The position numbers and the translations under genes were made by a program. This document shows, piece by piece, positions 36,284-59,325 of a stretch of DNA of 64,000 bases. The DNA is taken from IMG/VR virus record IMGVR_UViG_3300029736_000004, one strand, 5' to 3'. Every line of letters starts with the position of its first letter. The first letter of the stretch is position 1. The notes below the pieces were generated by a model. That model was not told the DNA's origin. It was given only the letters and a program-made list of their open reading frames with translations, and did not search any database. Source of the stretch: a virus. Lineage: Duplodnaviria > Heunggongvirae > Uroviricota > Caudoviricetes.

Positions 36284-36297
36284 TTAATTTTCTAACA
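36284..36297. promoter_or_regulatory. operator-like site (TTAATTTTCTAACA)
   Basis: Reverse-orientation perfect copy of the TGTTAGAAAATTAA 14-mer. Confidence 0.45.
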
Positions 36298-37428: not shown

Positions 37429-37485
37429 TGTTGCGATTGACTGTACAATAACCGTGCGGCGGGAATTTCATCGCTCGAAAATGTA

Positions 37486-37514
37486 TGTTAGAAAATTAAA
37501 TTGATGTTTCTAAT
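37486..37514. promoter_or_regulatory. operator-like inverted pair
   Basis: TGTTAGAAAATTAAATTGATGTTTCTAAT; additional half-site CTTTCTAATGTT at 37574-37585. Confidence 0.45.
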
Positions 37515-37599
37515 CAAGAATGTATGATTTATATCGTCACTAAAAAACAGCATCTGATAAAAATTCTGTTGATCTTTCTAATGTTCAGGCTTATATTCA

Positions 37600-37830
37600 T
37601 GCCGTCGTAGCAAATTCTGCGACCGGGTTTAGCAGCCTGAATGTTAGTGCGGACAACCGCAGATATCCGATATTGCGGTATTTTTGTGTCCGTAAAACCG
37701 CGTTACGCCCAAATTATGGTGGGGCGTGATGGGGAGGCTTCGGCCTGCTGGTTTCACTAACGCCAGTCTGCTAACCCCGTCACGTCCTGCCACCTGTTTA
37801 GCAGCGGGTAGCAGGTTGTTAAACCTGTTA
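37600..37830 (+). ncRNA. candidate c4-like antisense RNA / structured leader
   Basis: TTTAGCAGC at 37628 and 37798 is complementary to CTGCTAA at 37768; GAGGCTTCGGCCTGC tetraloop hairpin; lies upstream of icd-like and Rha-family genes. Confidence 0.3.
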
Positions 37831-37844
37831 GTGAGGCCGTAACT

Positions 37845-38069
37845 ATGGTTAATGCCAATCCTTGCTCACGTCCAGAATTCATCTGGCGTTTTCACTCCCT
37901 GCAAAAACACTGCGATCACTTCGCAATTGCCGCAACTGAAAAAGAAGCCCGTTCTCTGATCCCGGATCAGTATGGCGTTCTCACTGGTCGTTTCTCTACT
38001 TCCCCACAACCAAACACCAATCCCTGGTATCGCAATATTACCAATCCCGGCATTGTGGAGGCTCACTGA
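37845..38069 (+). CDS. small protein translationally coupled to antirepressor (icd-like position)
   Basis: 74 aa; stop overlaps the start of the Rha-family gene (TGATG). Confidence 0.35.
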   Translation: MVNANPCSRPEFIWRFHSLQKHCDHFAIAATEKEARSLIPDQYGVLTGRFSTSPQPNTNPWYRNITNPGIVEAH

Positions 38070-38776
38070 TGGATATCTGCATTCTCGAAAAGCCATCAAT
38101 GACAAGCATTGAGATCGCGGAGCTGGTGGGAAAACGTCATGACAATGTGAAACGCACTATTGAGACATTAGCCAAAGGTGGCGTTATTGTTCGTCCTCAA
38201 ATTGAGGTTTTCGAAAAAATCAATAACTTAGGACTACGACGTAGTGTTGAGGCTTACGTCTTCGAAGGCGAGCAAGGCAAGCGCGATAGCATTATCGTCG
38301 TCGCGCAGCTCTCTCCCGAATTCACCGCCCGGCTGGTGGACCGCTGGCGCGAACTGGAAGAACAAGTACGCCAGCCGTTGACCGAAATAGAGATGATCGC
38401 TGCAATGGCTGCAAATGCAGTTCAGCAGCAAAAGCGGCTTCATGTTGTTGAGTCAAAGGTTAGCCAGGTTGCTGAAACCGTCGAGCAGATCAAGAAAGGC
38501 AATATTCCGGAAGGCTACATTGGCTATCGCCAGTTGGCGGCAAAATGCGGCCTGACTGAAGCCAAATGCCGCAACCTGGTCAACGCTTACCGGATACCCA
38601 CTGATACGCATGAGTTTTTGACGCCAGAGGGGGTATTGTCGCGTCGTACTATTGTGGCCTTATCTCCCTTCATGAATGCCTTTACCCTGATGATGTCGGA
38701 GGCTGAACACCGAGGAAAACGCTGGTATCACCCAAGGATGGGACAATTCCAGGTGATCGGTTGGGGAGGCGAGTGA
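38069..38776 (+). CDS. Rha-family phage regulatory protein / antirepressor-like
   Basis: N-terminus MTSIEIAELVGKRHDNVKRTIETL matches the Rha-domain signature. Confidence 0.6.
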   Translation: MDICILEKPSMTSIEIAELVGKRHDNVKRTIETLAKGGVIVRPQIEVFEKINNLGLRRSVEAYVFEGEQGKRDSIIVVAQLSPEFTARLVDRWRELEEQVRQPLTEIEMIAAMAANAVQQQKRLHVVESKVSQVAETVEQIKKGNIPEGYIGYRQLAAKCGLTEAKCRNLVNAYRIPTDTHEFLTPEGVLSRRTIVALSPFMNAFTLMMSEAEHRGKRWYHPRMGQFQVIGWGGE

Positions 38777-38973
38777 TGGACATCATGCAGGCGGTAAAAA
38801 AAATCAGGGAAGGACAGGCTGAAGTGTGCCGCCGTAAAGCATGGAGTGTTGGTATATGGATCTGGCCTGATAATTGCTCTACTACCGGATGGTTTTGTAT
38901 TAATGGATGCCAGATCCGGGAAGTCGATTTATCGATGGCGGATGCAGTCGGTAATGATTGGATCGTAACTTGA
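38776..38973 (+). CDS. small protein with W..G..V.RR..W and C-terminal DWIV signature
   Basis: 65 aa; GGGGAGG SD; start overlaps upstream stop; one of four paralogous domains in the window. Confidence 0.4.
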   Translation: MDIMQAVKKIREGQAEVCRRKAWSVGIWIWPDNCSTTGWFCINGCQIREVDLSMADAVGNDWIVT

Positions 38974-38982
38974 AGTGTGATG

Positions 38983-39005
38983 CCCCGGCCTGGCCGGGGC
39001 TTTTT
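38983..39005 (+). terminator. rho-independent terminator
   Basis: GCCCCGGCC-T-GGCCGGGGC hairpin followed by TTTTT. Confidence 0.6.
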
Positions 39006-39490
39006 CATGCCTCATTAGTTGAGGTTGCTGCGTCTCCGACAGGTAACAGAGCTGTATTGCGTGGTTCGCCAGCAGGCCAGCGATAGCCAGACACTCTTGA
39101 TGTTGGGAATGCGCGAATATTAACAGCATCCCCCTGGTTCCCACCCAAGACAAGCAGATCGCCATTGGCGCGGCGTCCGACAACAAAGCCTACATGCCCA
39201 CCGCCTGCGCGAGTAAATACAACGATACATCCGTATGCCGGTGTATCTAATTTCTCGCCCCAATCCAGATAGGATTTTGCCGACTCAAATCTTGTTGAGC
39301 GGATACCTACACGTTCCAGCATTGCACCAACAAATGCAGCGCACCACGGCGTTTCGTCGTCTTTAATTCCGCTGCGCTTAATATCCCGCCAGAACTGGAC
39401 GATCTCAGGATTGTGTTTCGCTCCTTTTATTTCGGTGACTCCAATATTTTTACGGGCCTCAATAAGCCAACGAGGTTCATTGTTTGCCAT
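39005..39490 (-). CDS. peptidoglycan hydrolase (CHAP/NlpC-P60-like, TIGR02594-type)
   Basis: 161 aa; conserved Cys (ETPWCAAFVG) and His (GGHVGFVVG) spaced as in cysteine-peptidase cell-wall hydrolases; GGGAGA SD. Confidence 0.45.
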   Translation of the reverse strand: MANNEPRWLIEARKNIGVTEIKGAKHNPEIVQFWRDIKRSGIKDDETPWCAAFVGAMLERVGIRSTRFESAKSYLDWGEKLDTPAYGCIVVFTRAGGGHVGFVVGRRANGDLLVLGGNQGDAVNIRAFPTSRVSGYRWPAGEPRNTALLPVGDAATSTNEA

Positions 39491-39627: not shown

Positions 39628-42600
39628 TTGAGGGGGCTTCCTTTGGACAAAATAATTGATTCAATTAGCCAGGCCACCAGCATTGGGGCGCTGATTGAAA
39701 TTGTTAGTCGGTTGCATAAACCGCGAGCTGTAGTGACCTTTGGCGTTAAGAAAGTCGATGGCGTCAGTATTCAGAAAACACGCCGGGCAGCAAACAACGC
39801 CGCAGTAAATCTTCTTAATTCCCTTCCGCCTGGCTTCGATGGGGCGAAATTAACTGACGAACAGCGTCAGATTCTTGCCGGGTATACCGGTGAAGGCGGC
39901 CTGACAGATGGTGAGGGCAGCCAATACGAATACTATACGCCACAGTTTATGGCAGAAGGTATATGGGATCTCTTCGGCGACTACGGTATTGATAGCGGTC
40001 ACGTACTGGAACCGTCAGCAGGCACAGGTATTTTCCAGGAGACAAAACGGCAGGGCATGATAATGACCAGCGCCGAACTGTCTCCGATCTCCGGTCGAAT
40101 AAACCAGCTTTTGCACCCGGAAGATGATGTGAATATCGGGGCGTTTGAGGCGCTGGCGGCGAAAGATGCAATGTATGACCACGCAGTTGGTAACGTACCG
40201 TTTGGCGAAGGGCGTTCCGGCGTCGCCGGGCTTGATCCGGCATATGCAAACGAGAAGAACGTTGGCAATTATTTTGTGCTGCGCACGATCGACAAGGTTA
40301 AGCCTGGTGGACTAATTGTATTGGTGGTGCCGAATGGCATGACCGATGGTACGAAATACAAAAAATTGCGCGATAAAGTCAGCCGTAAAGCGGAATTTTT
40401 GGGCGCGCATCGTATGCCTTCTGGTACGTTCAGCGAATCCGGTACAGATACCGTGGTGGACGTATGGGTATTGCGTAAACACCCGGAAACCTTCCTGGAG
40501 ATGATCCCCGACACGGATGATGCAACGCTCAAATCGGCAAACGTCCTTTGGGATACCTTCCTCAAAGGGAAATGGTTTACAACCGAAGGGAAGCGATTTG
40601 TTTACGGCGACATGGAACGCACCAGCTTCCGCAATACCCTGGTGGTGAAAAAGGACGGTCGTGTATCCAATGAGTCGATGAAAACCGCGTTATCACGCCG
40701 CTTTGAAAGCCGTATTAATTGGGATTTGCTCGGAGTAACTACCCAGGCATGGCAGGGCGCAAAAGTAGGGGATAAGCGTCTTGTAGGCGGTATCTGGCAT
40801 GAGTTTGATGGCCTGAAATGGGTTAAGGACACGACAACCAAATCCTCCGCGCTTGATGTAAGTCGATATGGTGTTTCGACGTTTGGCGATCTGCAGATCG
40901 CGTTCCAGTCAACAAACGGGATTCTGGCTTTGTCATGGGACCAGATATCGGCGATCGCGTCCGACTATCCATCGGTTGTCAGTGATGAAGTGGCAGCAAT
41001 GATTCGCTTTGCTGGCAAACAGCGAGAAAAAGACAGGGAGCGCGTTATGCGCGGTGCACTGATAGGTCAGTTGATCAACAAGGCACTTGATTTGCGTAAC
41101 CTGGGGGGGAACGTTGATGACAAACTGGCAGATGCATCCCGCCTGGCGGCAGCAGAAGTTGCGAAGTATGGACCACCGCACGCGATTAAGCTGAATGGGC
41201 TTGCAGAAGCTGGAGCTAAAAACTGGATGACGTTCACTGGCAATGTGAAACAGGATGGTTCCACTTCTGACCTTCTGGCAGGGCGACTTGATGTAACGGA
41301 TGGTGCTGCCGGTATTGACTTTACACGTCCGGAACAAGTGATAGCACATCTTTTCAGTGATGTAGCCCTTAATCCTATAACGCTGGGCGACTTTCGTGAG
41401 GCGTTTGCTGGTGAACTGCCAGAGGACGACGACGCGGCCCTTGAATACCTGGCGAAATTTGATGATATCGCTATTGATGGGTATGGCTGCCTGCTGCCGA
41501 TGGACCGCGCCACCAGCGGCGATATTGCAACCAAAACAACATTGCTGGTGGGCTGGCGTGATGCGTCAACAGGTGAACAGAAAGCGAACTTTGAGCGTCA
41601 GTTGGCGAAAATCGAAGAGAAACGCATTTTCACGCCACTAAATAAAGTCACCGTTAATCTGAACGCCCGCTGGCTGGATCGCCGCTTGATAAAAGAGTTC
41701 CTGGCAGAGCAGGGCTATGACGAGTTTAAGTACACTGAACCTGATCTGAAGGTCGTCGATGGCATTCTGGTATCTCCGGACGATTACGAAGGTAAGGACG
41801 GGGTATTTACCGGCTATCAGCTACGAACCGTAAACGGCAAAAACGGGAATGAGTTCAAGAAGGCCAACAATAAAGACGGCTTCCTGAACCAGTTAGAAAA
41901 CTACCTGAACGGTGTTAAACCGCGTGGGCAGAACGCTAACGAGTACCTGGATAAAATTGCTCAACTGGAAGTTAGCTTTAACGACTGGTTACGCACCCAC
42001 CCGCAGGCGGATCAGATAGCCCGTGACTATAACGACGCATTCAATGGCTTCATTCCGTTCACGCACTCTAACGCACCGCTTGGCCTGGAAGGGATTAGTG
42101 GAAAGCGCATTCCTCTGACTTATCAGAATGAAGAAGTTCGTCGCTTGTCAGAAGATGGGCGCGGCATCATGGGATTTGGTACCGGGCTGGGTAAAACCAC
42201 GACCGCGCTTGCGCTTGAGGCGTATAACTTCGAAACAGGTCGTACTAAACGCACGTGTATTGTTGTTCCGAAGGCGGTTTATCAGAACTGGTATCACGAG
42301 GCACAGAGCTTCTACAGTGCTGATGCCTTCGCCAATATGATGTTTATCGGTCTGGATGAAGTTCGTGATGAAGACGGCAATATTCTGACCGCGCCGGTGC
42401 TTGATGAAAATGGCGAACCCCGCCTCGACAGTAACGGGCAGCCTCTTACCAGAAATGTTGTGAAAGAGTCCGCCAGCGCCGTTATCGTTCAGCGCATGAA
42501 CATGATCCCGTCGTCAAATTGGCGAACGGTCATCATGACAAAAGAACAATTCGCGTCTATCCCGCTACGAGAAAAAACCATCGAGGAGAACTCACAGCAA

Positions 42601-45600
42601 GCTGTCTTTAATGCTGTGGAAATGGGGCGTCTTGACCTGGCGTCTGGTAAACACCGTGATGCGCAGAAGAAGAACAAGATTAAGGATCAGGCCGCGAATA
42701 CCGGTACAACGAAGAAGCAGAATATCCCGTACTTTGAGGATATGAACTTCGATAGCGTGATTGCCGACGAGGGGCATAACTACCGCAACTCCTTTAATGC
42801 CGGGCGTGAAGCGGGACAACTGGCATATTTGCCTAACCCGGCAGTATCCAAGATGGCCCGCGACATGGCTGTAAAAGCTGCGTACATGATGAAACGCAAC
42901 AACGGGCGTGGTGTAGTCATGCTGACGGCAACTCCGCTGGTGAACAGTCCGATTGATGCCTTCAACATGCTGTCTACTGTCATTCCGCAGGAAGAGTGGA
43001 TGCGCATGGGCATTATTACGCCGGATGATTTCGTTCGCGTGTTCGGCAAAACAGCCACAGTTCAGGTTCAGAAAATTTCCGGTGAGGTGGAAGAGAAGCA
43101 GGGGCTGGTGGGCTTCCAGAACCTTGATGGTCTGCGTGGTATTTTCCACCGTTGGACCACTCTGAAGACTGCCGCAGATGTCGGAGCGACGGTTAAAATT
43201 CCCGACATCATCGAGAACACCTTGCAGATCCCGATGACAGGGGAGCAGGAGGCTGCTTATGAAGAGCTTCGTAAGCGTGCTCAGGAGTTAAGTCGCAATG
43301 ATGAGCTGACAGTCGATGAAAACGGGCATATCACTAACGACAAACCGGATGATTTCATCTTCTCCATCATCCGCGACATGGATAAGGTTGCTATAGATCC
43401 GGATCTGTATGCCAGTGCGATTACATTCCAGTTCCCCGTTGAGCTTGCAGACAAGGTAAAAGCTATTGCGGATGCCCTGCCAAAAGTCGCAGGCGGTAAA
43501 GTGGCAGATGATGCAGACGAGGCCGAAGAAGACGGCGCTGGTGGACTGGTCAGTACGCGTACCAGCAAGGTAGTGAAGACCACCTTTAGTGAACATCCGG
43601 CGCATGTTGAAATACGCGCCAGCATTGAACTGGAAGCTGAAATACTGAAGGCCATTGCTGCCGCCGGGATTGATCTGCAGCAGGTATCACACCCCATCCC
43701 GCCGAAGTATGCCGCGCTGATCGAAAACCTTCGTGAAGGTTTGAAGAACGGTAAACAAATTGTCTTCATTGATGAAAAAGCCCAGCACCAGAAGCTGCGC
43801 CGTATTATCGCCAGTGCACTGCAAATGCCGGAGCAGGAGATAGGCATTATCAATGCGACGACCGTTAGCCAGGCTGGCGGCATCAAGCTGAAGAAGGTGA
43901 ATAAGCCGACTGAACCTACTCCGAATAAAAACGGTGAATACAAAGAAGGGGCATGGGAAACCTACTACAGCAAACTTGCCCAATATGAGGATTATCTCTC
44001 AGCTAAAAATGATGCTGGCCTTGAGGGTATGGAAGGCATTGCCGCCGACTATAACGAAGGGCGCACGCGCATCATTATCTGTAACAAGAAGGCTGAAGTA
44101 GGTATTAACCTGCATATCGGGACAACCGATATCCACCACCTGACACTACCCTGGACACCAGCCAGTATCGACCAACGAAATGGGCGCGGTGCGCGCGTAG
44201 GTTCACCGCAAGAGAAGGTCAATGTTCACTACTATTGTGGCAAAGGCACATTCGACGACTTCCGTCTGGATACGCTGAAACGTAAGAAAGACTGGATCAA
44301 GATGGTGATGACCTCCGACATGTCAGAGATCGCCAATGGTGATGCGGATGATGCTGATGAACGCGCCATTATGCTGGCGGCAAACCCGGAAGAACGCCGC
44401 GCAATCATGGCTCGCCAGGCGCAAGAGCGCGAAGAACGTCTGAAACTGAAAGCACAGCGCGAGGCCAACAATGCTCTCGATATCTACCTGAAAGCGGCAA
44501 ACGCCGCTGGAAAAGATATCGGCATGATGGAGACAGAACTGAAAAGCGCGATGGAACAGATAGAGTATTACCAGCGAAATCTTGACGACCTGATAAAAGC
44601 GGGTACGAACAGGAATGGGCAAAAATTCGCGCTTGAGCAGTTGAGTAGCTACAGAAAACGTGCGCGGGTGCTGCGGTTTGCGATCACCAGGGCAAAAGAC
44701 GCGGATACCATAATGAAACGCTCTCGTGGTGATGTGGAGCGAGCTATTAAGTCTGGTGTGCTGGATATCAGTATCGATGTTATTCAGAACCCACAGGAAT
44801 ATATGCGCACTGACAAGAATATCCTGTTGCATAAAGGTAGTTATTACCGTGCAGTCATTGATGATCGCGAAACAACAGCGATTGTCCGGGTGGAAAAAAT
44901 TGACGGTGAAAAAGCACAATACCTCTGCCGTATCGCCTGGCTGGATAGAGCAAGTCGTTACGCTCGATCACCGGGGTCAATCGTTACATTGCCGTTTGAC
45001 TCTGTGATTGAAGCGGTAACTTTTGAAGAGGGGGTAGCTGAATCGCGCGCAACGGCTGCGCGTGGTGTTCAGTGCCACCAGCTATCAACAATACTTACTC
45101 GCGATCAGTTCTATGATGCTATTCGCAATGGGGTAATGAATGTTATTGCTGGTAAACCTGGTAATGCATGGGGCGGTGGGTCAGCTATTAAATACTGGGC
45201 ATATCGCACAGATGATGGTCAGATCGCGCTGTCATCGGCCTATGATGGCGTGATAGGCCAAAAAATCGGGCGAGCATCGGATATAGCACCTGAACGATGG
45301 ATATATCCAGATGGCAACGATGAGGCGCTGAAGCGTGAAGTGGCAAAAATACAAGCCAGTGATAACCCGCTGAATATCGTGGACGGCGAGGGATTCCTCC
45401 AGGCATTGTATGGGTATGATTACATCCAGGGAATGCAGGCATGGGGCGCACAGGCAACGATGGATGATGTTGTCCAGGAGTTCGAAAACTGGATGGCTGG
45501 GCGTGGTCTGTCAGGTCGTTCGCTTAATAAAGTCACTTCTGAAGATATTCTTAGCTTGTTCCGCAAACCGTCCGGAGAAGGTCTGGAATCATTCTGGAGG

Positions 45601-46479
45601 ACCGTGCTGGCATACCGTTTATTCAAGGGCAGAATGAAAGCCTTTAGCAATATCGATGATATTGAACGGATGTTTAATCAGGTCAAGATCGCGAAAATTA
45701 AGACGAAGATCGAAAAAACACGTTCTGCGCTGGTGGCCTGGCGCGATGCATTGTTTGAGCAATATAAATCACTCAGTGATGCAGATGGATGGGCGGCATT
45801 GGAACAGTTGGCGAATAATGGGGTAGATGGAGCGAAACTCGCCATAGTCCAGGCTGATAACCCCCTGGAATCACCGGCAGCACAGTGGATTAAGGTGGGG
45901 GCTGTCATCAATGCATTTGATGAAAAACACATTAGTAAGGACGATTTTGCTGATGCTGTTTCTGTTAATCGCCTGGTAGAAATGGCTACCCGCCGCGCCC
46001 GTGAGTTGAAAGACGGTGACTATGTGAATGAGTTGCCGGATGCGCTCAAATCAGCAACGTGGCAAGACTATGTATCGCTGAAAAACGGCGGGGCCACCGA
46101 ATCAGAGATCGCGGAAAGGCTTGAACAGGCTGAAAGCAAAAGAGAAGAGCAGGCGGCAGTGGCTGAAGCCAGAGCTGATGAAGCGGCGAATGATGACTAT
46201 ATCATTGTGGTTAATGATAAGCCGATTCGCGCTAAGGCGCGTGTTCGCGGGCGCTGGTGGAGTGTCAGCGAGGACGTCGGTGCGGTTTATCTCATTGCCG
46301 ACCAACCTGGTTCCTCGACAATACGGAACGCCAAAGACGCGATTAAGAAGATTGGCGGGCGTTTCTGGAATTTTGAAGCAAACCCGGTTGCTGATGTGAA
46401 CTTTGACCGTCCGGCATGGATGGTATCTACGCGTTACTCGGTAGATGAACTGCGTAAAATAATCGCCGATGCGGCCTAA
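39628..46479 (+). CDS. DarB-like N6-adenine methyltransferase / SF2 helicase fusion
   Basis: 2283 aa; MTase motifs EPSAGTGIF and GNVPFGEG; helicase Walker A GFGTGLGKTT, DEGH box, motif VI QRNGRGARVG; start may be TTG 39628 or 39643. Confidence 0.7.
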   Translation: MRGLPLDKIIDSISQATSIGALIEIVSRLHKPRAVVTFGVKKVDGVSIQKTRRAANNAAVNLLNSLPPGFDGAKLTDEQRQILAGYTGEGGLTDGEGSQYEYYTPQFMAEGIWDLFGDYGIDSGHVLEPSAGTGIFQETKRQGMIMTSAELSPISGRINQLLHPEDDVNIGAFEALAAKDAMYDHAVGNVPFGEGRSGVAGLDPAYANEKNVGNYFVLRTIDKVKPGGLIVLVVPNGMTDGTKYKKLRDKVSRKAEFLGAHRMPSGTFSESGTDTVVDVWVLRKHPETFLEMIPDTDDATLKSANVLWDTFLKGKWFTTEGKRFVYGDMERTSFRNTLVVKKDGRVSNESMKTALSRRFESRINWDLLGVTTQAWQGAKVGDKRLVGGIWHEFDGLKWVKDTTTKSSALDVSRYGVSTFGDLQIAFQSTNGILALSWDQISAIASDYPSVVSDEVAAMIRFAGKQREKDRERVMRGALIGQLINKALDLRNLGGNVDDKLADASRLAAAEVAKYGPPHAIKLNGLAEAGAKNWMTFTGNVKQDGSTSDLLAGRLDVTDGAAGIDFTRPEQVIAHLFSDVALNPITLGDFREAFAGELPEDDDAALEYLAKFDDIAIDGYGCLLPMDRATSGDIATKTTLLVGWRDASTGEQKANFERQLAKIEEKRIFTPLNKVTVNLNARWLDRRLIKEFLAEQGYDEFKYTEPDLKVVDGILVSPDDYEGKDGVFTGYQLRTVNGKNGNEFKKANNKDGFLNQLENYLNGVKPRGQNANEYLDKIAQLEVSFNDWLRTHPQADQIARDYNDAFNGFIPFTHSNAPLGLEGISGKRIPLTYQNEEVRRLSEDGRGIMGFGTGLGKTTTALALEAYNFETGRTKRTCIVVPKAVYQNWYHEAQSFYSADAFANMMFIGLDEVRDEDGNILTAPVLDENGEPRLDSNGQPLTRNVVKESASAVIVQRMNMIPSSNWRTVIMTKEQFASIPLREKTIEENSQQAVFNAVEMGRLDLASGKHRDAQKKNKIKDQAANTGTTKKQNIPYFEDMNFDSVIADEGHNYRNSFNAGREAGQLAYLPNPAVSKMARDMAVKAAYMMKRNNGRGVVMLTATPLVNSPIDAFNMLSTVIPQEEWMRMGIITPDDFVRVFGKTATVQVQKISGEVEEKQGLVGFQNLDGLRGIFHRWTTLKTAADVGATVKIPDIIENTLQIPMTGEQEAAYEELRKRAQELSRNDELTVDENGHITNDKPDDFIFSIIRDMDKVAIDPDLYASAITFQFPVELADKVKAIADALPKVAGGKVADDADEAEEDGAGGLVSTRTSKVVKTTFSEHPAHVEIRASIELEAEILKAIAAAGIDLQQVSHPIPPKYAALIENLREGLKNGKQIVFIDEKAQHQKLRRIIASALQMPEQEIGIINATTVSQAGGIKLKKVNKPTEPTPNKNGEYKEGAWETYYSKLAQYEDYLSAKNDAGLEGMEGIAADYNEGRTRIIICNKKAEVGINLHIGTTDIHHLTLPWTPASIDQRNGRGARVGSPQEKVNVHYYCGKGTFDDFRLDTLKRKKDWIKMVMTSDMSEIANGDADDADERAIMLAANPEERRAIMARQAQEREERLKLKAQREANNALDIYLKAANAAGKDIGMMETELKSAMEQIEYYQRNLDDLIKAGTNRNGQKFALEQLSSYRKRARVLRFAITRAKDADTIMKRSRGDVERAIKSGVLDISIDVIQNPQEYMRTDKNILLHKGSYYRAVIDDRETTAIVRVEKIDGEKAQYLCRIAWLDRASRYARSPGSIVTLPFDSVIEAVTFEEGVAESRATAARGVQCHQLSTILTRDQFYDAIRNGVMNVIAGKPGNAWGGGSAIKYWAYRTDDGQIALSSAYDGVIGQKIGRASDIAPERWIYPDGNDEALKREVAKIQASDNPLNIVDGEGFLQALYGYDYIQGMQAWGAQATMDDVVQEFENWMAGRGLSGRSLNKVTSEDILSLFRKPSGEGLESFWRTVLAYRLFKGRMKAFSNIDDIERMFNQVKIAKIKTKIEKTRSALVAWRDALFEQYKSLSDADGWAALEQLANNGVDGAKLAIVQADNPLESPAAQWIKVGAVINAFDEKHISKDDFADAVSVNRLVEMATRRARELKDGDYVNELPDALKSATWQDYVSLKNGGATESEIAERLEQAESKREEQAAVAEARADEAANDDYIIVVNDKPIRAKARVRGRWWSVSEDVGAVYLIADQPGSSTIRNAKDAIKKIGGRFWNFEANPVADVNFDRPAWMVSTRYSVDELRKIIADAA

Positions 46480-49688: not shown

Positions 49689-49720
49689 ATGTTAGAAAAT
49701 TAAAATTGTTTTTCTAACAT
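49689..49720. promoter_or_regulatory. operator-like perfect palindrome
   Basis: ATGTTAGAAAATTAAAATTGTTTTTCTAACAT; another site TGTTAGAAAGTAAA at 49840-49853. Confidence 0.5.
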
Positions 49721-51034: not shown

Positions 51035-51111
51035 GATGGTGTAGCTCAGTAGGATAGAGCAGCAGCCTTCTAAGCTGTCGGTCGGTGGTTCGAATCCACC
51101 CACCATCGCCA
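51035..51111 (+). tRNA. tRNA-Arg (anticodon TCT)
   Basis: Cloverleaf: acceptor GATGGTG/CACCATC, D-arm TAGCTCAGTAGGATAGAGC, anticodon loop CTTCTAA, T-arm GGTGGTTCGAATCCACC, CCA end. Confidence 0.85.
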
Positions 51112-51116
51112 ATTTA

Positions 51117-51203
51117 GGGGAGTTAGTCCGTAGGGGTAGCGGGGTAGACTGTAAATCTACTGTCATTGCGACTCGGATGGTTCGACTCCATCACTCCCCA
51201 CCA
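51117..51203 (+). tRNA. tRNA-Tyr (anticodon GTA)
   Basis: Acceptor GGGGAGT/ACTCCCC, anticodon stem-loop GTAGA-CTGTAAA-TCTAC, long variable arm, T-loop TTCGACT, CCA. Confidence 0.8.
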
Positions 51204-51207
51204 AATT

Positions 51208-51283
51208 GCCGGTTTAGCTCAGTTGGTAGAGCAGTCGCTTTGTAAGCGAATGGTCAGCGGTTCGATCCCGTTAACCGGCACCA
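51208..51283 (+). tRNA. tRNA-Thr (anticodon TGT)
   Basis: Acceptor GCCGGTT/AACCGGC, D-arm GCTCAGTTGGTAGAGC, anticodon loop TTTGTAA, T-loop TTCGATC, CCA. Confidence 0.8.
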
Positions 51284-51296
51284 ACACAACAGGTAA

Positions 51297-51361
51297 GGGT
51301 ATTTTGCGACATCGGAGATCGCCGAGCTTGGCAGAGGGTTCGAATCCCTACGAAGTACCCT
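51297..51361 (+). other. tRNA-like element lacking a canonical anticodon arm (possible degenerate tRNA)
   Basis: Acceptor-like GGGTATT/AGTACCC, D-arm-like GCGA...TCGC, T-arm GAGGGTTCGAATCCCTA, but only 11 nt between D and T arms; extended outer stem CACAACAGGTAAGGG/CCCTTGCCGTTGTG. Confidence 0.25.
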
Positions 51362-51471
51362 TGCCGTTGTGATGAATGCACAGGCTGATGTGCCGCAACT
51401 ACAGTAGTGCGCGCTTTGCGGGGCTTGCTACAACCCTGTGTCGGAGTTCAGCACCGACCATCACAATCACT

Positions 51472-51558
51472 GGAGAGTAGGGAGCATGGTGCTCAAGCGG
51501 TCTTGAAAACCGTCCCATTGCGCAAGCGATGATGGTTCGATTCCATTACTCTCCGCCA
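51472..51558 (+). tRNA. tRNA-Ser (anticodon TGA)
   Basis: Acceptor GGAGAGT/ACTCTCC, anticodon stem-loop GCGGT-CTTGAAA-ACCGT, long variable arm, T-arm GATGGTTCGATTCCATT, CCA. Confidence 0.8.
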
Positions 51559-51849
51559 GCGCAACGTTAAGAGTATTTGGCTAATTAAGCGAATGCCGGA
51601 AGCAGAACCGGATCACCAAATGCGTACAGGCGTCATCGCCGCCCAGTCAGCCAAATGCTCTTACCATTGCGGTGAATGCGGCTAAGCGCACGCGGAACAG
51701 TTAAAACAGTAAAGGTGGTCTTTTTACTGGCGTAACGAGCATCCATAAGTGATCCGGCGTTAATTGTTAACTGGTTAACGTCACCGGGAGGCACCCGGCA
51801 CCGCAACCTAACAGCAATGGCGTTTTGTCTTAAAAGGTGGCTGCAAGTG

Positions 51850-51978
51850 ATGGATTTTTGGGCGTTTGCCGATAAAAACCCGGAGTGGACATTATTGTTT
51901 CTGCTGGTGGTTGCATACGGGGTAGAGCAAGCGGCAAAAGCCTTACGCGGTTCTGGCAAAAAGCGTAAGCGTAATTAA
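51850..51978 (+). CDS. small hydrophobic ORF (42 aa) between tRNA genes
   Basis: MDFWAFADKNPEWTLLFLLVVAYGVEQAAKALRGSGKKRKRN; not in the ORF track (under 60 aa); AAAGGTGG upstream. Confidence 0.25.
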   Translation: MDFWAFADKNPEWTLLFLLVVAYGVEQAAKALRGSGKKRKRN

Positions 51979-51987
51979 CAGTAATCT

Positions 51988-52063
51988 GGCCCTTTAGCTC
52001 AGTGGTTAGAGCGGGCGACTCATAATCGCACGGTCACCGGTTCAAGTCCGGTAGGGGCCACCA
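51988..52063 (+). tRNA. tRNA-Ile2-like (anticodon CAT; Met not excluded)
   Basis: GGCCCTTTAGCTCAGTGGTTAGAGCGGGCGACTCATAATCGC...GGTTCAAGTCCGGTAGGGGCCACCA closely resembles E. coli ileX-type tRNA (recalled). Confidence 0.8.
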
Positions 52064-53473: not shown

Positions 53474-53505
53474 TGTTAGTAAATTAATATTAATTTTCTA
53501 ATACA
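53474..53505. promoter_or_regulatory. operator-like inverted pair upstream of Lpa-like gene
   Basis: TGTTAGTAAATTAATATTAATTTTCTAATACA. Confidence 0.45.
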
Positions 53506-56879: not shown

Positions 56880-57917
56880 TTACCAGAGTTTTGCCGCGTA
56901 CATCGTTTGTGTGAATGTGTACCCATAGCGTTCTTCAACGCTTTTACCGTATTTTTTCCTGGCTTCAGTAAGGCGGATGCCTGTCAGGTCATCGCCGGAG
57001 GCAATCATAACTTCCAGTAGTTCCAGGTCCATTTTATCCAGCCTTGCCATTGCATCTTTAGCCTCTTGAATTTTCCGGCTAACGATCTGGTGTATGGCTG
57101 GATCGGCTTCGGCCAGCATTTTATCTGATTTGTTTTTTAAACTCTGATTGCGGATATCAATGTTTCTCAGGATATATGACTTCACGACATAGCTTGGCTG
57201 CTGCTTTTCCAGATCACGAACCCGATAAAGGTCAAATTCGCCGAGAAGTCCGCACGGAAGCGGTTTAATGCCAGTGTAAATGGTAAGGGTACGGCGCTCA
57301 CCAACGTTGTTAACAACGGGAATCTCTGTGTTTGCTTTTCTTGCAAAGATCAGCGCACCGTGCGCACCCACTCGGAAGCGTGAAAGTCCATTGTTGCCCT
57401 CGATATTGGTGGTAATCACCACATCGGTATAACCTTCTTTTCTTGCGCGGTATACCTCGCCCTCACGTTCAGCGGCGAAGAATCTGCGTTCTTCTTCAAG
57501 CGCACCGACAACCTGTGAAAATATCCTGTTTTTCATGCTTTTCTTTATAGTTTTATCGTATTTTTTCAGCAGGTCTTCGCGCGTAAATGTTCTCGTTGTG
57601 GTTGCGCTTTGCATAACGATATGCGTACTCTGATTAGTATCCTCAACAATGAATGGGATCGGTAAATAAACCGACTCAACAATGTTTGAGGCTTTGTCAT
57701 CATCCTTGCGACACAGATCAACAAAGGCTTTCCATTCGGCTATGCATTTTTCAGCTTCTTCTAATACAGCCGGATCATGTGTTAATGCAACATGGCGAAA
57801 TTCCTCGCCAACATAACTGGTATCATGGAAAACAGAGTTTGCGACCACCAGCTCTTTCCACCGTTCGGCGGTTTGCAGGAACCGTTTGTACTCATTCTCG
57901 ATCGACTTCTTACTCAT
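56880..57917 (-). CDS. candidate immunity repressor (c1 position)
   Basis: 345 aa between pacB and the rox-like site, as c1 lies in P1-family pac-c1 regions; operator-like sites at 57936-57946 and 58021-58030 in its upstream region. Confidence 0.35.
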   Translation of the reverse strand: MSKKSIENEYKRFLQTAERWKELVVANSVFHDTSYVGEEFRHVALTHDPAVLEEAEKCIAEWKAFVDLCRKDDDKASNIVESVYLPIPFIVEDTNQSTHIVMQSATTTRTFTREDLLKKYDKTIKKSMKNRIFSQVVGALEEERRFFAAEREGEVYRARKEGYTDVVITTNIEGNNGLSRFRVGAHGALIFARKANTEIPVVNNVGERRTLTIYTGIKPLPCGLLGEFDLYRVRDLEKQQPSYVVKSYILRNIDIRNQSLKNKSDKMLAEADPAIHQIVSRKIQEAKDAMARLDKMDLELLEVMIASGDDLTGIRLTEARKKYGKSVEERYGYTFTQTMYAAKLW

Positions 57918-57931
57918 TATTCCTACTCGAT

Positions 57932-57946
57932 TTAGTTTTCTAACAT
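57932..57946. promoter_or_regulatory. operator-like site (TTAGTTTTCTAACAT)
   Basis: 15 bp upstream of the c1-candidate start; variant ATTAGAAAAT at 58021-58030. Confidence 0.45.
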
Positions 57947-58296: not shown

Positions 58297-59325
58297 ATGG
58301 GTGAACTAGTTATCTCCGGCGGTTCTGGTGGTTTTCTGCGCGATATTGGCACCGAATACCAGGAAGCTGCAAAAAACTTTATGCAGTTCATGAACGACCA
58401 GGGAGCTTATGCCCCAAATACGCTTCGAGATCTCCGTCTGGTGTTTCATTCCTGGGCGCGGTGGTGTAACTCGCGCCAGCGCCCCTGGTTCCCGATTACG
58501 CCGGAAATGGCCCGCGAGTATCTTCTCCAGTTGCATGAGGCCGATCTGGCTTCGACCACCATTGATAAGCACTATGCCATGCTTAACATGCTGCTTTCGC
58601 AATGTGGCCTCCCGCCGCTCTCGGACGATAAAAGTGTGTCTCTGGCCATGCGGCGCATCCGGCGCGAAGCGGCAACGGAAAAAGGCGAGCGAACAGGCCA
58701 GGCTATACCGTTGCGGTGGGATGATCTGAAATTGCTCGACGTGTTGCTGTCCCGTTCCGAGCGGCTGGTGGACCTGCGCAATCGGGCGTTTCTCTTCGTG
58801 GCATACAATACCCTGATGCGTATGTCAGAAATCTCGCGCATCCGCGTCGGAGATCTGGAACAAACAGGTGACACTGTAACGCTGCATATTTCACACACGA
58901 AGACCATCACGACCGCCGCCGGACTTGATAAGGTGCTTTCTCGTTACACTACCGCCGTACTGAACGACTGGCTGGAGGTGTCCGGACTTCGAGAACATCC
59001 GGACGCGGTGCTATTCCCGCCAATACACCGCAGTAATAAGGCCAGAATCACGACAACGCCCCTTACTGCACCTGCAATGGAGAAAATATTCAGCGATGCC
59101 TGGGGGTTGCTGAACAAACGAGATGCCACGCCGAACAAAGGAAGATACCGGACGTGGACAGGCCATAGTGCGCGTGTTGGTGCGGCAATTGATATGGCTG
59201 AGAAACAGGTGTCAATGGTCGAGATCATGCAGGAAGGCACATGGAAAAAGCCCGAAACACTTATGCGATATTTGCGCCGTAGCGGGGCATCCGTTGGTGC
59301 AAATAGTCGCCTGATGGATTCATAA
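58297..59325 (+). CDS. dre: Cre-family tyrosine recombinase (Dre-like)
   Basis: WARWCNSRQRPWFPITPEMAREYLLQL...LPPLSDDKSVSLAMRRIRRE aligns with Cre WAAWCKLNNRKWFPAEPEDVRDYLLYL...SNAVSLVMRRIRKE; C-terminal WTGHSARVGAAIDMA catalytic region; rox-like site 160 bp upstream. Confidence 0.7.
   Translation: MGELVISGGSGGFLRDIGTEYQEAAKNFMQFMNDQGAYAPNTLRDLRLVFHSWARWCNSRQRPWFPITPEMAREYLLQLHEADLASTTIDKHYAMLNMLLSQCGLPPLSDDKSVSLAMRRIRREAATEKGERTGQAIPLRWDDLKLLDVLLSRSERLVDLRNRAFLFVAYNTLMRMSEISRIRVGDLEQTGDTVTLHISHTKTITTAAGLDKVLSRYTTAVLNDWLEVSGLREHPDAVLFPPIHRSNKARITTTPLTAPAMEKIFSDAWGLLNKRDATPNKGRYRTWTGHSARVGAAIDMAEKQVSMVEIMQEGTWKKPETLMRYLRRSGASVGANSRLMDS

What the first reader, a model, noticed from the sequence alone, without database searches (positions are those of the whole stretch)
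37560..38776. Candidate antisense-RNA immunity region (c4/icd/ant-like) upstream of a Rha-family antirepressor
A 280-bp non-coding stretch contains two direct copies of TTTAGCAGC (37628, 37798) and one complementary CTGCTAA element (37768), plus a stable GGCTTCGGCC tetraloop hairpin and a CAGGTT-GTTA-AACCTG hairpin. It is followed by a 74-codon ORF translationally coupled (TGATG) to the Rha-family gene. This mirrors the P1 immI logic, where c4 RNA pairs with repeated target sites to block icd/ant translation. Operator-like sites lie just upstream.
Basis: partly seen in the sequence, partly recalled or inferred. Interest (0 to 1): 0.6.

Follow-up and report, generated by a model that had tools for sequence, protein, structure and literature searches.

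The report
P1-type C4 antisense immunity operon

Summary
Rfam models match above their curated cut-offs: C4 antisense RNA at 37712-37797 (70 bits, cut-off 45) and its a1/b1 target motif at 37591-37643 (53.9 bits, cut-off 46.7). Window 37569-37956 is about 90-91% identical to the c4-icd segment of P1 and P7. The whole operon is 89% identical to phage D6 and 99% to E. coli plasmids of about 90 kb.

The second pair is GTTAGTG at 37643 and 37827, matched by CACTAAC in the C4 loop at 37755. This is the pair that covers the icd Shine-Dalgarno sequence.

In 53 distinct relatives, C4 loops and both target sets pair in 98.6-99.3% of cells, with many two-sided changes; shifted controls give 22-45%. The a and b recognition alleles occur in 13 combinations. 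The window carries P7's a allele with P1's b allele, as do 10 other loci.

P1's Ant1/2 is replaced by a Rha-domain protein plus a 65-aa ORF. A D6-type operator motif lies upstream. This is already known biology. The only mildly new points are the combinatorial specificity alleles and a conserved IsrK-like leader terminator.

The parts
37484..37518 (.). Candidate repressor operator: TGTTAGAAAATTAA (37486-37499) with a partial inverted partner TTTCTAAT (37507-37514). It overlaps the -35 of the upstream promoter.
   Evidence: The motif TGTTAGAAAAYTAA occurs 13 times in the window (up to 2 mismatches) against 0.76 expected, and 0 of 100 shuffles reach 13. Other copies lie upstream of the repL-like gene (36284-36297) and of the C1-like gene (57932-57945). 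It is conserved in D6 at the same place. Binding has not been tested.
37501..37528 (+). Upstream promoter-like site TTGATG-16-TATGAT. By position it is the analogue of P1's C1-controlled P2c4/P51a.
   Evidence: Consensus scan. P1 has the C1 operator Oc4 and P2c4 upstream of P1c4. The sequence here is D6-type, not P1-type.
37569..37597 (+). Promoter equivalent to P1 P1c4 (former P51b): -35 TTGATC (37569-37574), 17 bp spacer, -10 TATATT (37592-37597).
   Evidence: Aligned to the annotated P1 promoter TTGACC/TATAGT and found independently by the scan. Homology to P1/P7 begins exactly here.
37591..37643 (+). Leader with the a1/b1 target motif (Rfam RF03163). a1 is TTAGCAG at 37629-37635, in a hairpin loop. 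b1 is GTTAGTG(C) at 37643-37650.
   Evidence: 53.9 bits against a gathering score of 46.7. Mapped from the P1 annotation. Pairs with the C4 loops in 99.3% of cells across 53 relatives.
37650..37692 (+). Terminator-like hairpin plus U-run (GGACAACCGCAG...CUGCGGUAUUUUUGUGUCC) between the leader and c4. Together with a1/b1 it resembles the IsrK small RNA.
   Evidence: Fold of 37604-37692: -29.5 kcal/mol, z -3.1. The Rfam isrK model scores 46 bits over 37604-37685, below its gathering score of 50. A hairpin plus T-run is kept in divergent relatives that have different stem sequences (L004, L065, L107).
37718..37794 (+). Mature C4 antisense RNA, 77 nt (Rfam hit 37712-37797). b' is CACUAAC at 37755-37761, in a 9-nt hairpin loop. 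a' is CUGCUAA at 37768-37774, in a single-stranded junction. The UUCG-capped hairpin is at 37736-37745.
   Evidence: RF01695 at 70 bits against a gathering score of 45. Ends mapped from the P1 misc_RNA annotation. Fold: -45.4 kcal/mol, z -5.8, both recognition elements unpaired.
37798..37804 (+). a2 target site TTAGCAG, in the icd leader immediately after C4.
   Evidence: Mapped from the P1 annotation. Complementary to a' in 123 of 123 loci that could be scored, and 98.4% of cells pair.
37812..37827 (+). Spacer hairpin CAGGUU-GUUA-AACCUG between a2 and b2. Its last G is the first base of b2.
   Evidence: centroid structure. Relatives with other b alleles keep a hairpin using different 3' arm sequences. 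Its function is not known.
37827..37836 (+). b2 target site GUUAGUGA, extended by two G-U pairs, overlapping the icd Shine-Dalgarno sequence GAGG. The icd AUG is at 37845.
   Evidence: Mapped from the P1 annotation, 'target site b2 ... repression of icd ant translation'. 98.7% of cells pair, and 6 of 10 pairs change on both sides.
37845..38069 (+). icd: 74-aa homologue of the host cell-division inhibitor Icd.
   Evidence: NCBIfam NF033153 at 40 bits against a cut-off of 25. 61% identity to P1 Icd, E 8e-27. 10 of 225 nt differ from D6 icd.
38069..38776 (+). Rha-domain protein, 235 aa, a putative antirepressor. It is translationally coupled to icd (TGATG) and stands in the place of P1 ant1/ant2.
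   Evidence: Pfam PF09669 at 36.6 bits against a cut-off of 29.9. PHROG 63 'anti-repressor Ant', E 1.5e-48. The D6 orthologue is annotated 'similar to HK97 Roi'. No similarity to P1 Ant1.
38776..38973 (+). Third coupled ORF, 65 aa, function unknown. It starts with a TGATG overlap on the Rha gene stop codon.
   Evidence: PHROG 7385, unknown function, E 1.9e-45. Annotated as hypothetical in D6 and in plasmids.
38982..39010 (+). Intrinsic terminator-like hairpin (8 G-C pairs) plus T-run, at the end of the operon.

Best explanation
This is the immI (secondary immunity) operon of a D6-like phage-plasmid, built on the same regulatory RNA module as P1 and P7.

Transcription starts at the P51b-type promoter (37569-37597), and probably also at an operator-covered upstream promoter. 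The transcript carries, in order:
- a leader with the a1/b1 sites;
- a leaky terminator;
- the C4 precursor;
- the a2/b2 sites;
- icd, a Rha-type gene and a 65-aa ORF, all translationally coupled.

The 77-nt C4 RNA is cut out of this transcript. It pairs through its junction element a' (CUGCUAA) with a2, and through its loop element b' (CACUAAC) with b2. Because b2 overlaps the icd Shine-Dalgarno sequence, icd translation is blocked. Because the downstream genes depend on icd translation, the Rha-type putative antirepressor stays off and lysogeny is maintained. A superinfecting phage with the same a/b alleles is repressed in the same way.

Shown here: homology, structure, site positions and co-variation. 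Inferred from P1/P7 work: RNA processing, translational repression, polarity, and the antirepressor role of the Rha protein.
For: Rfam C4 scores 70 bits (cut-off 45) and c4-a1b1 scores 53.9 bits (cut-off 46.7).

DNA identity is 90.5% to P1 and 91.3% to P7 over 37569-37956. The experimentally based P1 annotation of promoter, a1, b1, c4, a2, b2 and icd transfers base by base.

The C4 fold leaves a' and b' unpaired: -45.4 kcal/mol, z -5.8.

In 124 loci that share the C4 core, the complement of a' is present at a1 in 121/121 and at a2 in 123/123 loci that could be scored. The complement of b' is present at b1 in 120/121 and at b2 in 120/121. This holds across 3 a alleles and 8 b alleles.

On 53 distinct sequences:
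- C4 with site 1: 99.3% of cells pair and 10 of 14 pairs change on both sides.
- C4 with site 2: 98.6% of cells pair and 8 of 17 pairs change on both sides.
- Shifted registers: 22-45% of cells pair.

Of the 7 differences from P7 downstream of the transcript start region, 6 are the coordinated b1/b'/b2 changes.

Icd homology. The stop and start codons overlap as TGATG at both gene junctions.

A dispersed operator motif lies upstream, and a distant C1 homologue is in the window.

The published P1 mechanism is summarised in PMC8198154. A D6-like plasmid is reported to carry homologues of c4, icd and an antirepressor in PMC6799933.
Against: No expression or processing data exist for this element.

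The regulated protein is unrelated to P1 Ant1/2. Its orthologue in D6 is described as Roi-like, so 'antirepressor' is unproven.

A terminator-like hairpin lies between the promoter and c4, so C4 synthesis needs read-through.

The P1 C1 operator sequence itself is absent; the D6-type motif is only a candidate operator.
Confidence: 0.9

Rival explanations
1. There is an additional IsrK-type layer, which is compatible with the main model. Most transcripts stop at the leader terminator and give a short RNA of about 80-90 nt that carries a1/b1. This RNA acts in trans as a decoy for C4 (an anti-antisense). Alternatively, C4 binding at a1/b1 modulates termination. Either way, the leader sets how much free C4 and read-through mRNA exist.
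For: The Rfam isrK model matches 37604-37685 at 46 bits, including the terminator. The fold shows a hairpin plus U-run. a1/b1 co-vary with the C4 loops as strictly as a2/b2 do, so pairing at site 1 is under selection. b1 abuts the 5' arm of the terminator stem. In Gifsy-1, short IsrK terminates at such a terminator, reads through in part, and activates translation of the coupled downstream orf45-anrP in trans. It is also complementary to a processed downstream RNA (PMC4825925).
Against: The isrK score is below its gathering score of 50. The P1 annotation calls a1/b1 only 'putative' targets. No transcript-end data exist for this element. The Gifsy-1 mechanism was described as a structural activation of the mRNA, not as C4 titration.
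Confidence: 0.35
2. The RNA switch works as in P1, but the Rha-domain protein is not an antirepressor of the C1-like repressor. Instead it is a Roi/Rha-type DNA-binding regulator needed for lytic growth.
For: It has no similarity to P1 Ant1. It carries a Pfam Rha domain and a winged-helix match. The D6 record says 'similar to HK97 Roi protein'. RefSeq names it 'Rha family transcriptional regulator'.
Against: The best PHROG families are annotated as anti-repressor: phrog_63 at E 1.5e-48, and also phrog_1726, 373 and 8235. It occupies exactly the slot of ant in the operon. Relatives with the same C4 core carry either an Ant1-type or this Rha-type gene in that slot, which suggests equivalent cargo.
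Confidence: 0.3
3. The conserved stretch encodes a small protein repressor, or the repeats are chance, and there is no antisense RNA.
For: Short ORFs overlap the region: 37641-37760 (39 aa) and 37726-37842 (38 aa). An old P1 record annotates c4 as a CDS (X15639). In the sister locus of the closest plasmid, RefSeq places an 'ash family protein' CDS on top of a C4 match.
Against: The changes are compensatory at the RNA level across three separate sites, and 98.6-99.3% of cells pair. The covariance-model score and the fold z-score fit an RNA. The 9-mer and the b 7-mer are over-represented locally.
Confidence: 0.02

Closest known systems
immI operon of phages P1 and P7 (c4 - icd - ant1/ant2). References from my own knowledge: Citron & Schuster 1990, Cell 62:591, and Lobocka et al. 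2004. The annotation is in NC_005856 and NC_050152.
   Same: The P51b-type promoter, the a1/b1 leader, the 77-nt C4, the a2/b2 sites (with b2 on the icd ribosome-binding site) and the first half of icd are shared. Identity over 37569-37956 is 90-91%. C4 differs at 2 bases from P7 and at 3 from P1.
   Different: The recognition alleles are a hybrid: a as in P7 (TTAGCAG), b as in P1 (GTTAGTG). The 3' half of icd is D6-type. Ant1/Ant2 is replaced by an unrelated Rha-domain protein plus a 65-aa ORF. The upstream operator and second promoter are D6-type, not P1's Oc4. The neighbours differ: a repL-like gene lies upstream, instead of sim upstream and kilA-repL downstream.
immI-like region of phage D6 (NC_050154) and D6-like plasmid prophages such as pYU39_89 (PMC6799933).
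   Same: The gene order is the same: repL-like, c4, icd, Rha/Roi-like 'Ant', small ORF, lysozyme-like gene, darB-like gene. Identity is 89% over 95% of the query, and 99% to E. coli plasmids such as NZ_LR890273. The operator-like motif is shared.
   Different: D6 carries a = TTGACAG (as in P1) and b = ACTTACG, with matching C4 loops. The predicted immunity specificity therefore differs from the window at both elements.
IsrK / STnc1160 - orf45 - anrP locus of Salmonella prophage Gifsy-1 (Rfam RF01394; PMC4825925).
   Same: A leader small RNA with two hairpins and an intrinsic terminator, read-through into a short ORF that is translationally coupled to an antirepressor-like gene, and complementarity between the leader and a processed downstream RNA.
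   Different: The window's leader scores below the isrK gathering score (46 against 50), and the best-fitting model for the same stretch is c4-a1b1. Gifsy-1 regulation was described as activation by the short RNA. No experimental data exist here.

Membership tests
C4 antisense RNA (Rfam RF01695) | The covariance model (sequence plus structure) scores at or above the gathering threshold. | tested here: met
   70 bits against 45, full-length match 1-87 at 37712-37797.
C4 antisense RNA (Rfam RF01695) | A long closing stem with a UUCG hairpin and a second hairpin. The recognition elements are exposed, in a loop (b') and a junction (a'). | tested here: met
   MFE -45.4 kcal/mol, z -5.8. The loop UUCACUAAC and the junction CUGCUAA are unpaired.
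C4 antisense RNA (Rfam RF01695) | Complementary target sites a2/b2 lie just downstream on the same transcript, with b2 over the ribosome-binding site of the first gene. | tested here: met
   a2 is at 37798-37804. b2 is at 37827-37836 and overlaps GAGG, 8 nt before the AUG at 37845. Co-variation is shown.
C4 antisense RNA (Rfam RF01695) | A stable RNA of about 77 nt is produced by processing of a longer transcript (RNase P at the 5' end, per P1 work recalled from memory). | not testable with these tools
   The closing stem and the 3' CCACC are identical to P1. That is only indirect evidence.
c4-a1b1 motif (Rfam RF03163) | The covariance model scores at or above the gathering threshold, upstream of a C4 gene, and the sites are complementary to the C4 loops. 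| tested here: met
   53.9 bits against 46.7 at 37591-37643. 99.3% of cells pair with C4.
P1/P7 immI operon | An Icd homologue is the first cistron after C4. | tested here: met
   NF033153 at 40 bits against 25. 61% identity to P1 Icd.
P1/P7 immI operon | Ant1/Ant2 antirepressor genes are translationally coupled to icd. | tested here: not met
   Coupling is present (TGATG), but the protein has no significant similarity to P1 Ant1: best E 0.35. It is a Rha-domain protein.
P1/P7 immI operon | A C1 repressor operator (P1 consensus ATTGCTCTAATAAATTT) controls an upstream promoter. | tested here: inconclusive
   The P1 operator sequence is absent at the aligned position. A different dispersed motif, TGTTAGAAAAYTAA, occupies the place: 13 copies against 0.76 expected. 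A distant C1 homologue exists: 21% identity over 241 aa, E 2e-7. Binding has not been tested.
isrK Hfq-binding RNA (Rfam RF01394) | The covariance model scores at or above the gathering threshold. | tested here: not met
   46 bits against 50 at 37604-37685. The second locus of the sister plasmid does pass, at 61.3 bits.
Phage regulatory protein Rha (Pfam PF09669) | The domain scores at or above the Pfam gathering score. | tested here: met
   36.6 bits against 29.9, residues 11-98. The NCBIfam TIGR02681 subfamily model is not met: 17.6 bits against 45.95.
Tad2-like / DUF2829 (Pfam PF11195), for the 65-aa ORF | The domain scores at or above the gathering score, or the fold matches. | tested here: not met
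   17.3 bits against 25. No PDB sequence hit. The model has low confidence, pLDDT 63.7, and no Foldseek match with E below 1.

The most novel reading that the evidence does not exclude
The P1-type C4 module is a two-key combinatorial immunity code. The a and b recognition elements each exist as discrete alleles: at least 3 for a and at least 8 for b. They are found in 13 combinations, each with all three copies (site 1, C4, site 2) matched. This holds even though the six elements are interleaved on the DNA (a1-b1-b'-a'-a2-b2), so a single crossover cannot exchange one key alone.

The window's a(P7)+b(P1) hybrid would then be an immunity type distinct from both P1 and P7. Alternatively it is partly cross-immune with each, if one contact is enough.

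The strictly co-varying a1/b1 leader, with its conserved terminator, would act as an IsrK-like decoy or attenuator that tunes free C4. I could not read the D6 genome paper (Gilcrease & Casjens 2018), which may already describe part of this.
Probability: 0.25. Interest if true: 0.45.

Novelty: already known. Interest (0 to 1): 0.2.

Why it matters
It matters little as a discovery. The C4/icd/ant switch has been a textbook antisense system since 1990, and its presence in D6-like plasmid prophages is published.

The practical value is in annotation. The C4 RNA and its four target sites are not annotated in the D6 record or in the RefSeq record of the closest plasmid. A sister locus even carries a likely spurious 'ash family protein' CDS on top of a C4 RNA.

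The survey also gives a clean natural compensatory-mutation data set for an RNA-RNA interaction. It suggests that superinfection immunity among the P1-like and D6-like phage-plasmids common in E. coli is set by mix-and-match pairs of 7-nt keys. Part of this operon is found in 767 of 5426 complete E. coli genomes.

Tried and rejected
1. A long degenerate pattern across the C4 loops found nothing in viral contigs. The plain 20-mer core found more than 120 loci. I treat the first result as a limitation of the search, not as absence.

2. The single genome-contig scan gave one locus, a MAG labelled Achromobacter. It is of little use because that collection holds one genome per species.

3. I looked for a second c4/icd copy inside the window, because D6-like plasmids are reported to have two (PMC6799933). 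There is none. In the closest plasmid the second copy lies at 60.3-60.8 kb, which projects outside this window.

4. My first covariation count used a b' register that was one base off and gave poor pairing. I corrected it after checking, and the shifted result now serves as a control.

5. The 65-aa ORF as a Tad2-like anti-defence protein: the Pfam hit is weak and below cut-off, only 3 homologue clusters exist, there is no PDB sequence hit, the model has low confidence, and there is no structural match. Not supported.

6. The Rha-type protein against P1 Ant1 and against the PDB: no relationship found.

7. The D6 genome paper (PMC5800970) and the P1 genome paper (PMC523184) are not held in the library. 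I therefore could not check what they say about C4 specificity types.
Full report
**Observation.**
- TTTAGCAGC lies at 37628-37636 and at 37797-37805. There is only one further copy in the 64 kb, against 0.65 expected.
- CTGCTAA is at 37768-37774.
- GGCTTCGGCC is at 37736-37745.
- The CAGGTT-GTTA-AACCTG hairpin is at 37812-37827.
- The 74-codon ORF (37845-38069) and the next ORF (38069-38776) overlap by TGATG.
- The second ORF carries a Pfam Rha domain: 36.6 bits, cut-off 29.9.

**Identity of the RNA elements.**
A scan of the whole window with Rfam at curated thresholds returns two relevant families. C4 antisense RNA (RF01695) matches 37712-37797 with 70 bits (gathering score 45). The a1/b1 target motif (RF03163) matches 37591-37643 with 53.9 bits (gathering score 46.7). 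Both are full-length matches on the + strand.

**What carries it.**
Window 37569-37956 is 90.5% identical to phage P1 and 91.3% to P7 across their c4-icd segment. The whole 1.4 kb is 89% identical to phage D6 and 92-99% identical to E. coli plasmids of about 90 kb, which are non-mobilizable by PLSDB typing.

D6 and those plasmids have the same gene order: portal, pro-like gene, repL-like gene, [c4], icd, 'anti-repressor / Rha family', small ORF, lysozyme-like gene, darB-like giant gene. The window is therefore part of a D6-like phage-plasmid. Part of the operon is found in 767 of 5426 complete E. coli genomes, and at least 80% of it in 97.

**Base-by-base map.**
The P1 record carries the experimentally derived annotation of this region. 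I transferred it through a four-way alignment with P7 and D6:
- promoter P1c4 (former P51b): -35 TTGATC at 37569-37574, -10 TATATT at 37592-37597, also found by the promoter scan;
- a1: 37629-37635;
- b1: 37643-37650;
- mature C4: 37718-37794 (77 nt);
- a2: 37798-37804;
- b2: 37827-37834;
- icd: 37845-38069.

The b set is the one that matters for translation. b2 (GUUAGUGA), extended by two G-U pairs, covers the GAGG Shine-Dalgarno sequence 8 nt before the icd AUG.

Folded alone, C4 forms the expected long closing stem. It has the UUCG hairpin and a second hairpin whose 9-nt loop is b', and a 7-nt single-stranded junction that is a' (-45.4 kcal/mol, z -5.8).

**Evidence that the pairings are functional.**
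P1, P7, D6 and the window differ precisely at these elements, and always in all three copies at once.
- P1: a = TTGACAG, b = GTTAGTG.
- P7: a = TTAGCAG, b = GATTGTG.
- D6: a = TTGACAG, b = ACTTACG.
- Window: a = TTAGCAG, b = GTTAGTG.

I collected more than 120 loci from IMG/VR that share a 20-nt C4 core. In 124 parsed loci:
- the complement of a' was present at a1 in 121 of 121 and at a2 in 123 of 123 loci that could be scored;
- the complement of b' was present at b1 in 120 of 121 and at b2 in 120 of 121;
- this held over 3 a alleles, 8 b alleles and 13 combinations.

On an alignment of 53 distinct sequences:
- C4 with site 1 pairs in 99.3% of cells, and 10 of 14 pairs change on both sides;
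- C4 with site 2 pairs in 98.6% of cells, and 8 of 17 pairs change on both sides;
- shifted registers give 22-45%.

These loci are related and are not independent samples. Even so, the number of distinct alleles makes coincidence untenable.

Against P7, the window's 247-nt regulatory stretch has 10 differences. Three lie next to the -10 hexamer, six are the coordinated b1/b'/b2 changes, and one is elsewhere.

**Specificity type.**
The window's combination, the a key of P7 with the b key of P1, is not unique. Ten other loci have it, with either an Ant1-type or a Rha-type downstream gene. The C4 module and its cargo are therefore exchanged independently.

Whether the hybrid is heteroimmune to both P1 and P7 depends on whether both contacts are needed. 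I could not establish that from the papers available. The six elements are interleaved (a1-b1-b'-a'-a2-b2), so one key cannot be swapped by a single crossover. How the combinations arose is open.

**The leader.**
Between b1 and C4 lies a hairpin followed by a U-run (37650-37692). Together with the two leader hairpins it matches the Rfam isrK model at 46 bits, just under its gathering score of 50. Divergent relatives keep a hairpin plus T-run there with different stem sequences.

In Gifsy-1, IsrK is such a short RNA. It partly reads through its terminator into a short ORF coupled to an antirepressor-like gene, it acts in trans on that mRNA, and it is complementary to a processed downstream RNA (PMC4825925).

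a1/b1 co-vary with C4 as strictly as a2/b2 do. I therefore think pairing of C4 with the leader is functional here too, as a decoy or as a termination control. This is inference.

**Proteins.**
- The 74-aa ORF is Icd: NF033153 at 40 bits against 25, and 61% identity to P1 Icd. P1 Icd blocks Z-ring formation by targeting FtsZ (abstract of PMC11897509).
- The 235-aa protein has no similarity to P1 Ant1. It matches Pfam Rha and PHROG families named anti-repressor. D6's copy is described as Roi-like. Its antirepressor role is therefore positional inference.
- A 65-aa ORF (38776-38973) is coupled by a second TGATG, and a strong terminator follows at 38982-39000. The operon thus extends about 230 bp beyond the finding's end.

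**Upstream control.**
The sequence upstream of 37569 is not P1-like but D6-like. It holds TGTTAGAAAATTAA (37486-37499) with a partial inverted partner, overlapping a second promoter-like site (37501-37528).

The motif TGTTAGAAAAYTAA occurs 13 times in the window against 0.76 expected. Copies lie upstream of the repL-like gene and immediately upstream of a gene (56880-57917, minus strand) whose product is a distant homologue of P1 C1: 21% identity over 241 aa, E 2e-7. This fits a dispersed asymmetric operator system like P1's, with its own sequence. Binding is untested.

**Mechanism.**
By homology with P1/P7 (PMC8198154; Citron & Schuster 1990 and later work from that laboratory, cited from my own knowledge), the steps are as follows.
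1. The operon transcript yields C4.
2. C4 binds a2/b2 on the same kind of transcript and blocks icd translation.
3. Because the downstream genes are coupled to icd, and in P1 subject to transcriptional polarity, the antirepressor is not made.
4. The main repressor additionally shuts the upstream promoter.

Homology, structure, site geometry and co-variation are shown here. Processing, repression, polarity and protein function are inferred.

**Comparison and novelty.**
The element passes the membership tests for C4 and c4-a1b1, and for the Icd part of immI. It fails the Ant1/2 criterion. It is best called a D6-type immI operon built on the P1/P7 C4 module.

The presence of c4, icd and an antirepressor homologue in D6-like plasmid prophages, and of a second c4-icd region, is already published (PMC6799933). 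In the closest plasmid that second region is an orthogonal isrK+C4+icd locus with a = TTGGAAC and b = GTCAAAGG. It lies outside this window.

Neither the D6 record nor the RefSeq plasmid record annotates the RNA.

**Verdict.**
The system is already known, and interest is low. The combinatorial key alleles and the conserved leader terminator are the only points that might repay further work.

Noticed in passing
window 6680, 36284(-), 37486, 41891, 47390, 48445, 49690/49706(-), 49840, 53474/53490(-), 57932(-), 59327(-): A dispersed 14-nt motif, TGTTAGAAAAYTAA: 13 copies with up to 2 mismatches against 0.76 expected. At 49690-49719 and 53474-53503 two copies face each other as near-palindromes. 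It is probably the operator set of the D6-type C1 repressor, analogous to P1's scattered C1 operators but with a different sequence.
   Followed up: partly
window 56880-57917 (- strand): A 345-aa ORF with distant similarity to the P1 C1 repressor: 21% identity over 241 aa, pairwise E 2e-7. A copy of the operator motif sits directly upstream of its start, and a Cre-like tyrosine recombinase gene lies next to it (58297-59325). It is annotated 'hypothetical protein' in the closest plasmid.
   Followed up: partly
L126 13885-14365 (NZ_LR890273.1 60285-60765), outside the window: The closest complete plasmid has a second, orthogonal locus: isrK (61.3 bits), C4 (77.1 bits) and a second icd-like gene. 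Its keys differ (a = TTGGAAC, b = GTCAAAGG, with b2 on the AAGGAGG ribosome-binding site). RefSeq annotates a 39-codon 'ash family protein' CDS lying on the C4 RNA, which looks like a spurious call.
   Followed up: partly
window 38776-38973: A 65-aa ORF translationally coupled to the Rha-type gene, with a weak sub-threshold Pfam match to Tad2-like/DUF2829 (E 0.007). Its family is very narrow (3 clusters). No PDB sequence hit or structural match supports the link.
   Followed up: yes
window 37712-37797; NC_050154 and NZ_LR890273 records: The C4 RNA and its target sites are not annotated in the D6 GenBank/RefSeq record or in the RefSeq record of the closest plasmid. The flanking proteins are named there.
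   Followed up: yes
window 51035-52060: A cluster of four tRNA genes (51035-51108, 51117-51200, 51208-51280, 51988-52060) found by Rfam, as in D6-like and P1-like phage-plasmids.
   Followed up: no
window 39628-46479: A giant 2283-aa ORF just downstream of the operon, on the + strand. Its D6 counterpart is annotated as similar to P1 darB (a helicase/methyltransferase antirestriction protein).
   Followed up: no
L004 3405-3666 (JBEBWV010000114.1, MAG labelled Achromobacter deleyi): A divergent C4 locus with the same 20-nt core but its own keys (a = TTTGCAG, b = GTAAAAGG), matched in a1, C4, a2 and b2; the automatic b1 check failed at its expected position. It shows that the module extends beyond the E. 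coli P1/D6 group, or that the MAG bin contains an enterobacterial contig.
   Followed up: no
window 37598-38069 compared with P7 and D6: A mosaic junction inside icd. The regulatory RNA region is nearly P7 (10 differences in 247 nt). icd is D6-type (10 of 225 nt differ from D6, 82-85 from P1/P7). Megablast homology to P1/P7 ends at 37956, in mid-icd.
   Followed up: partly
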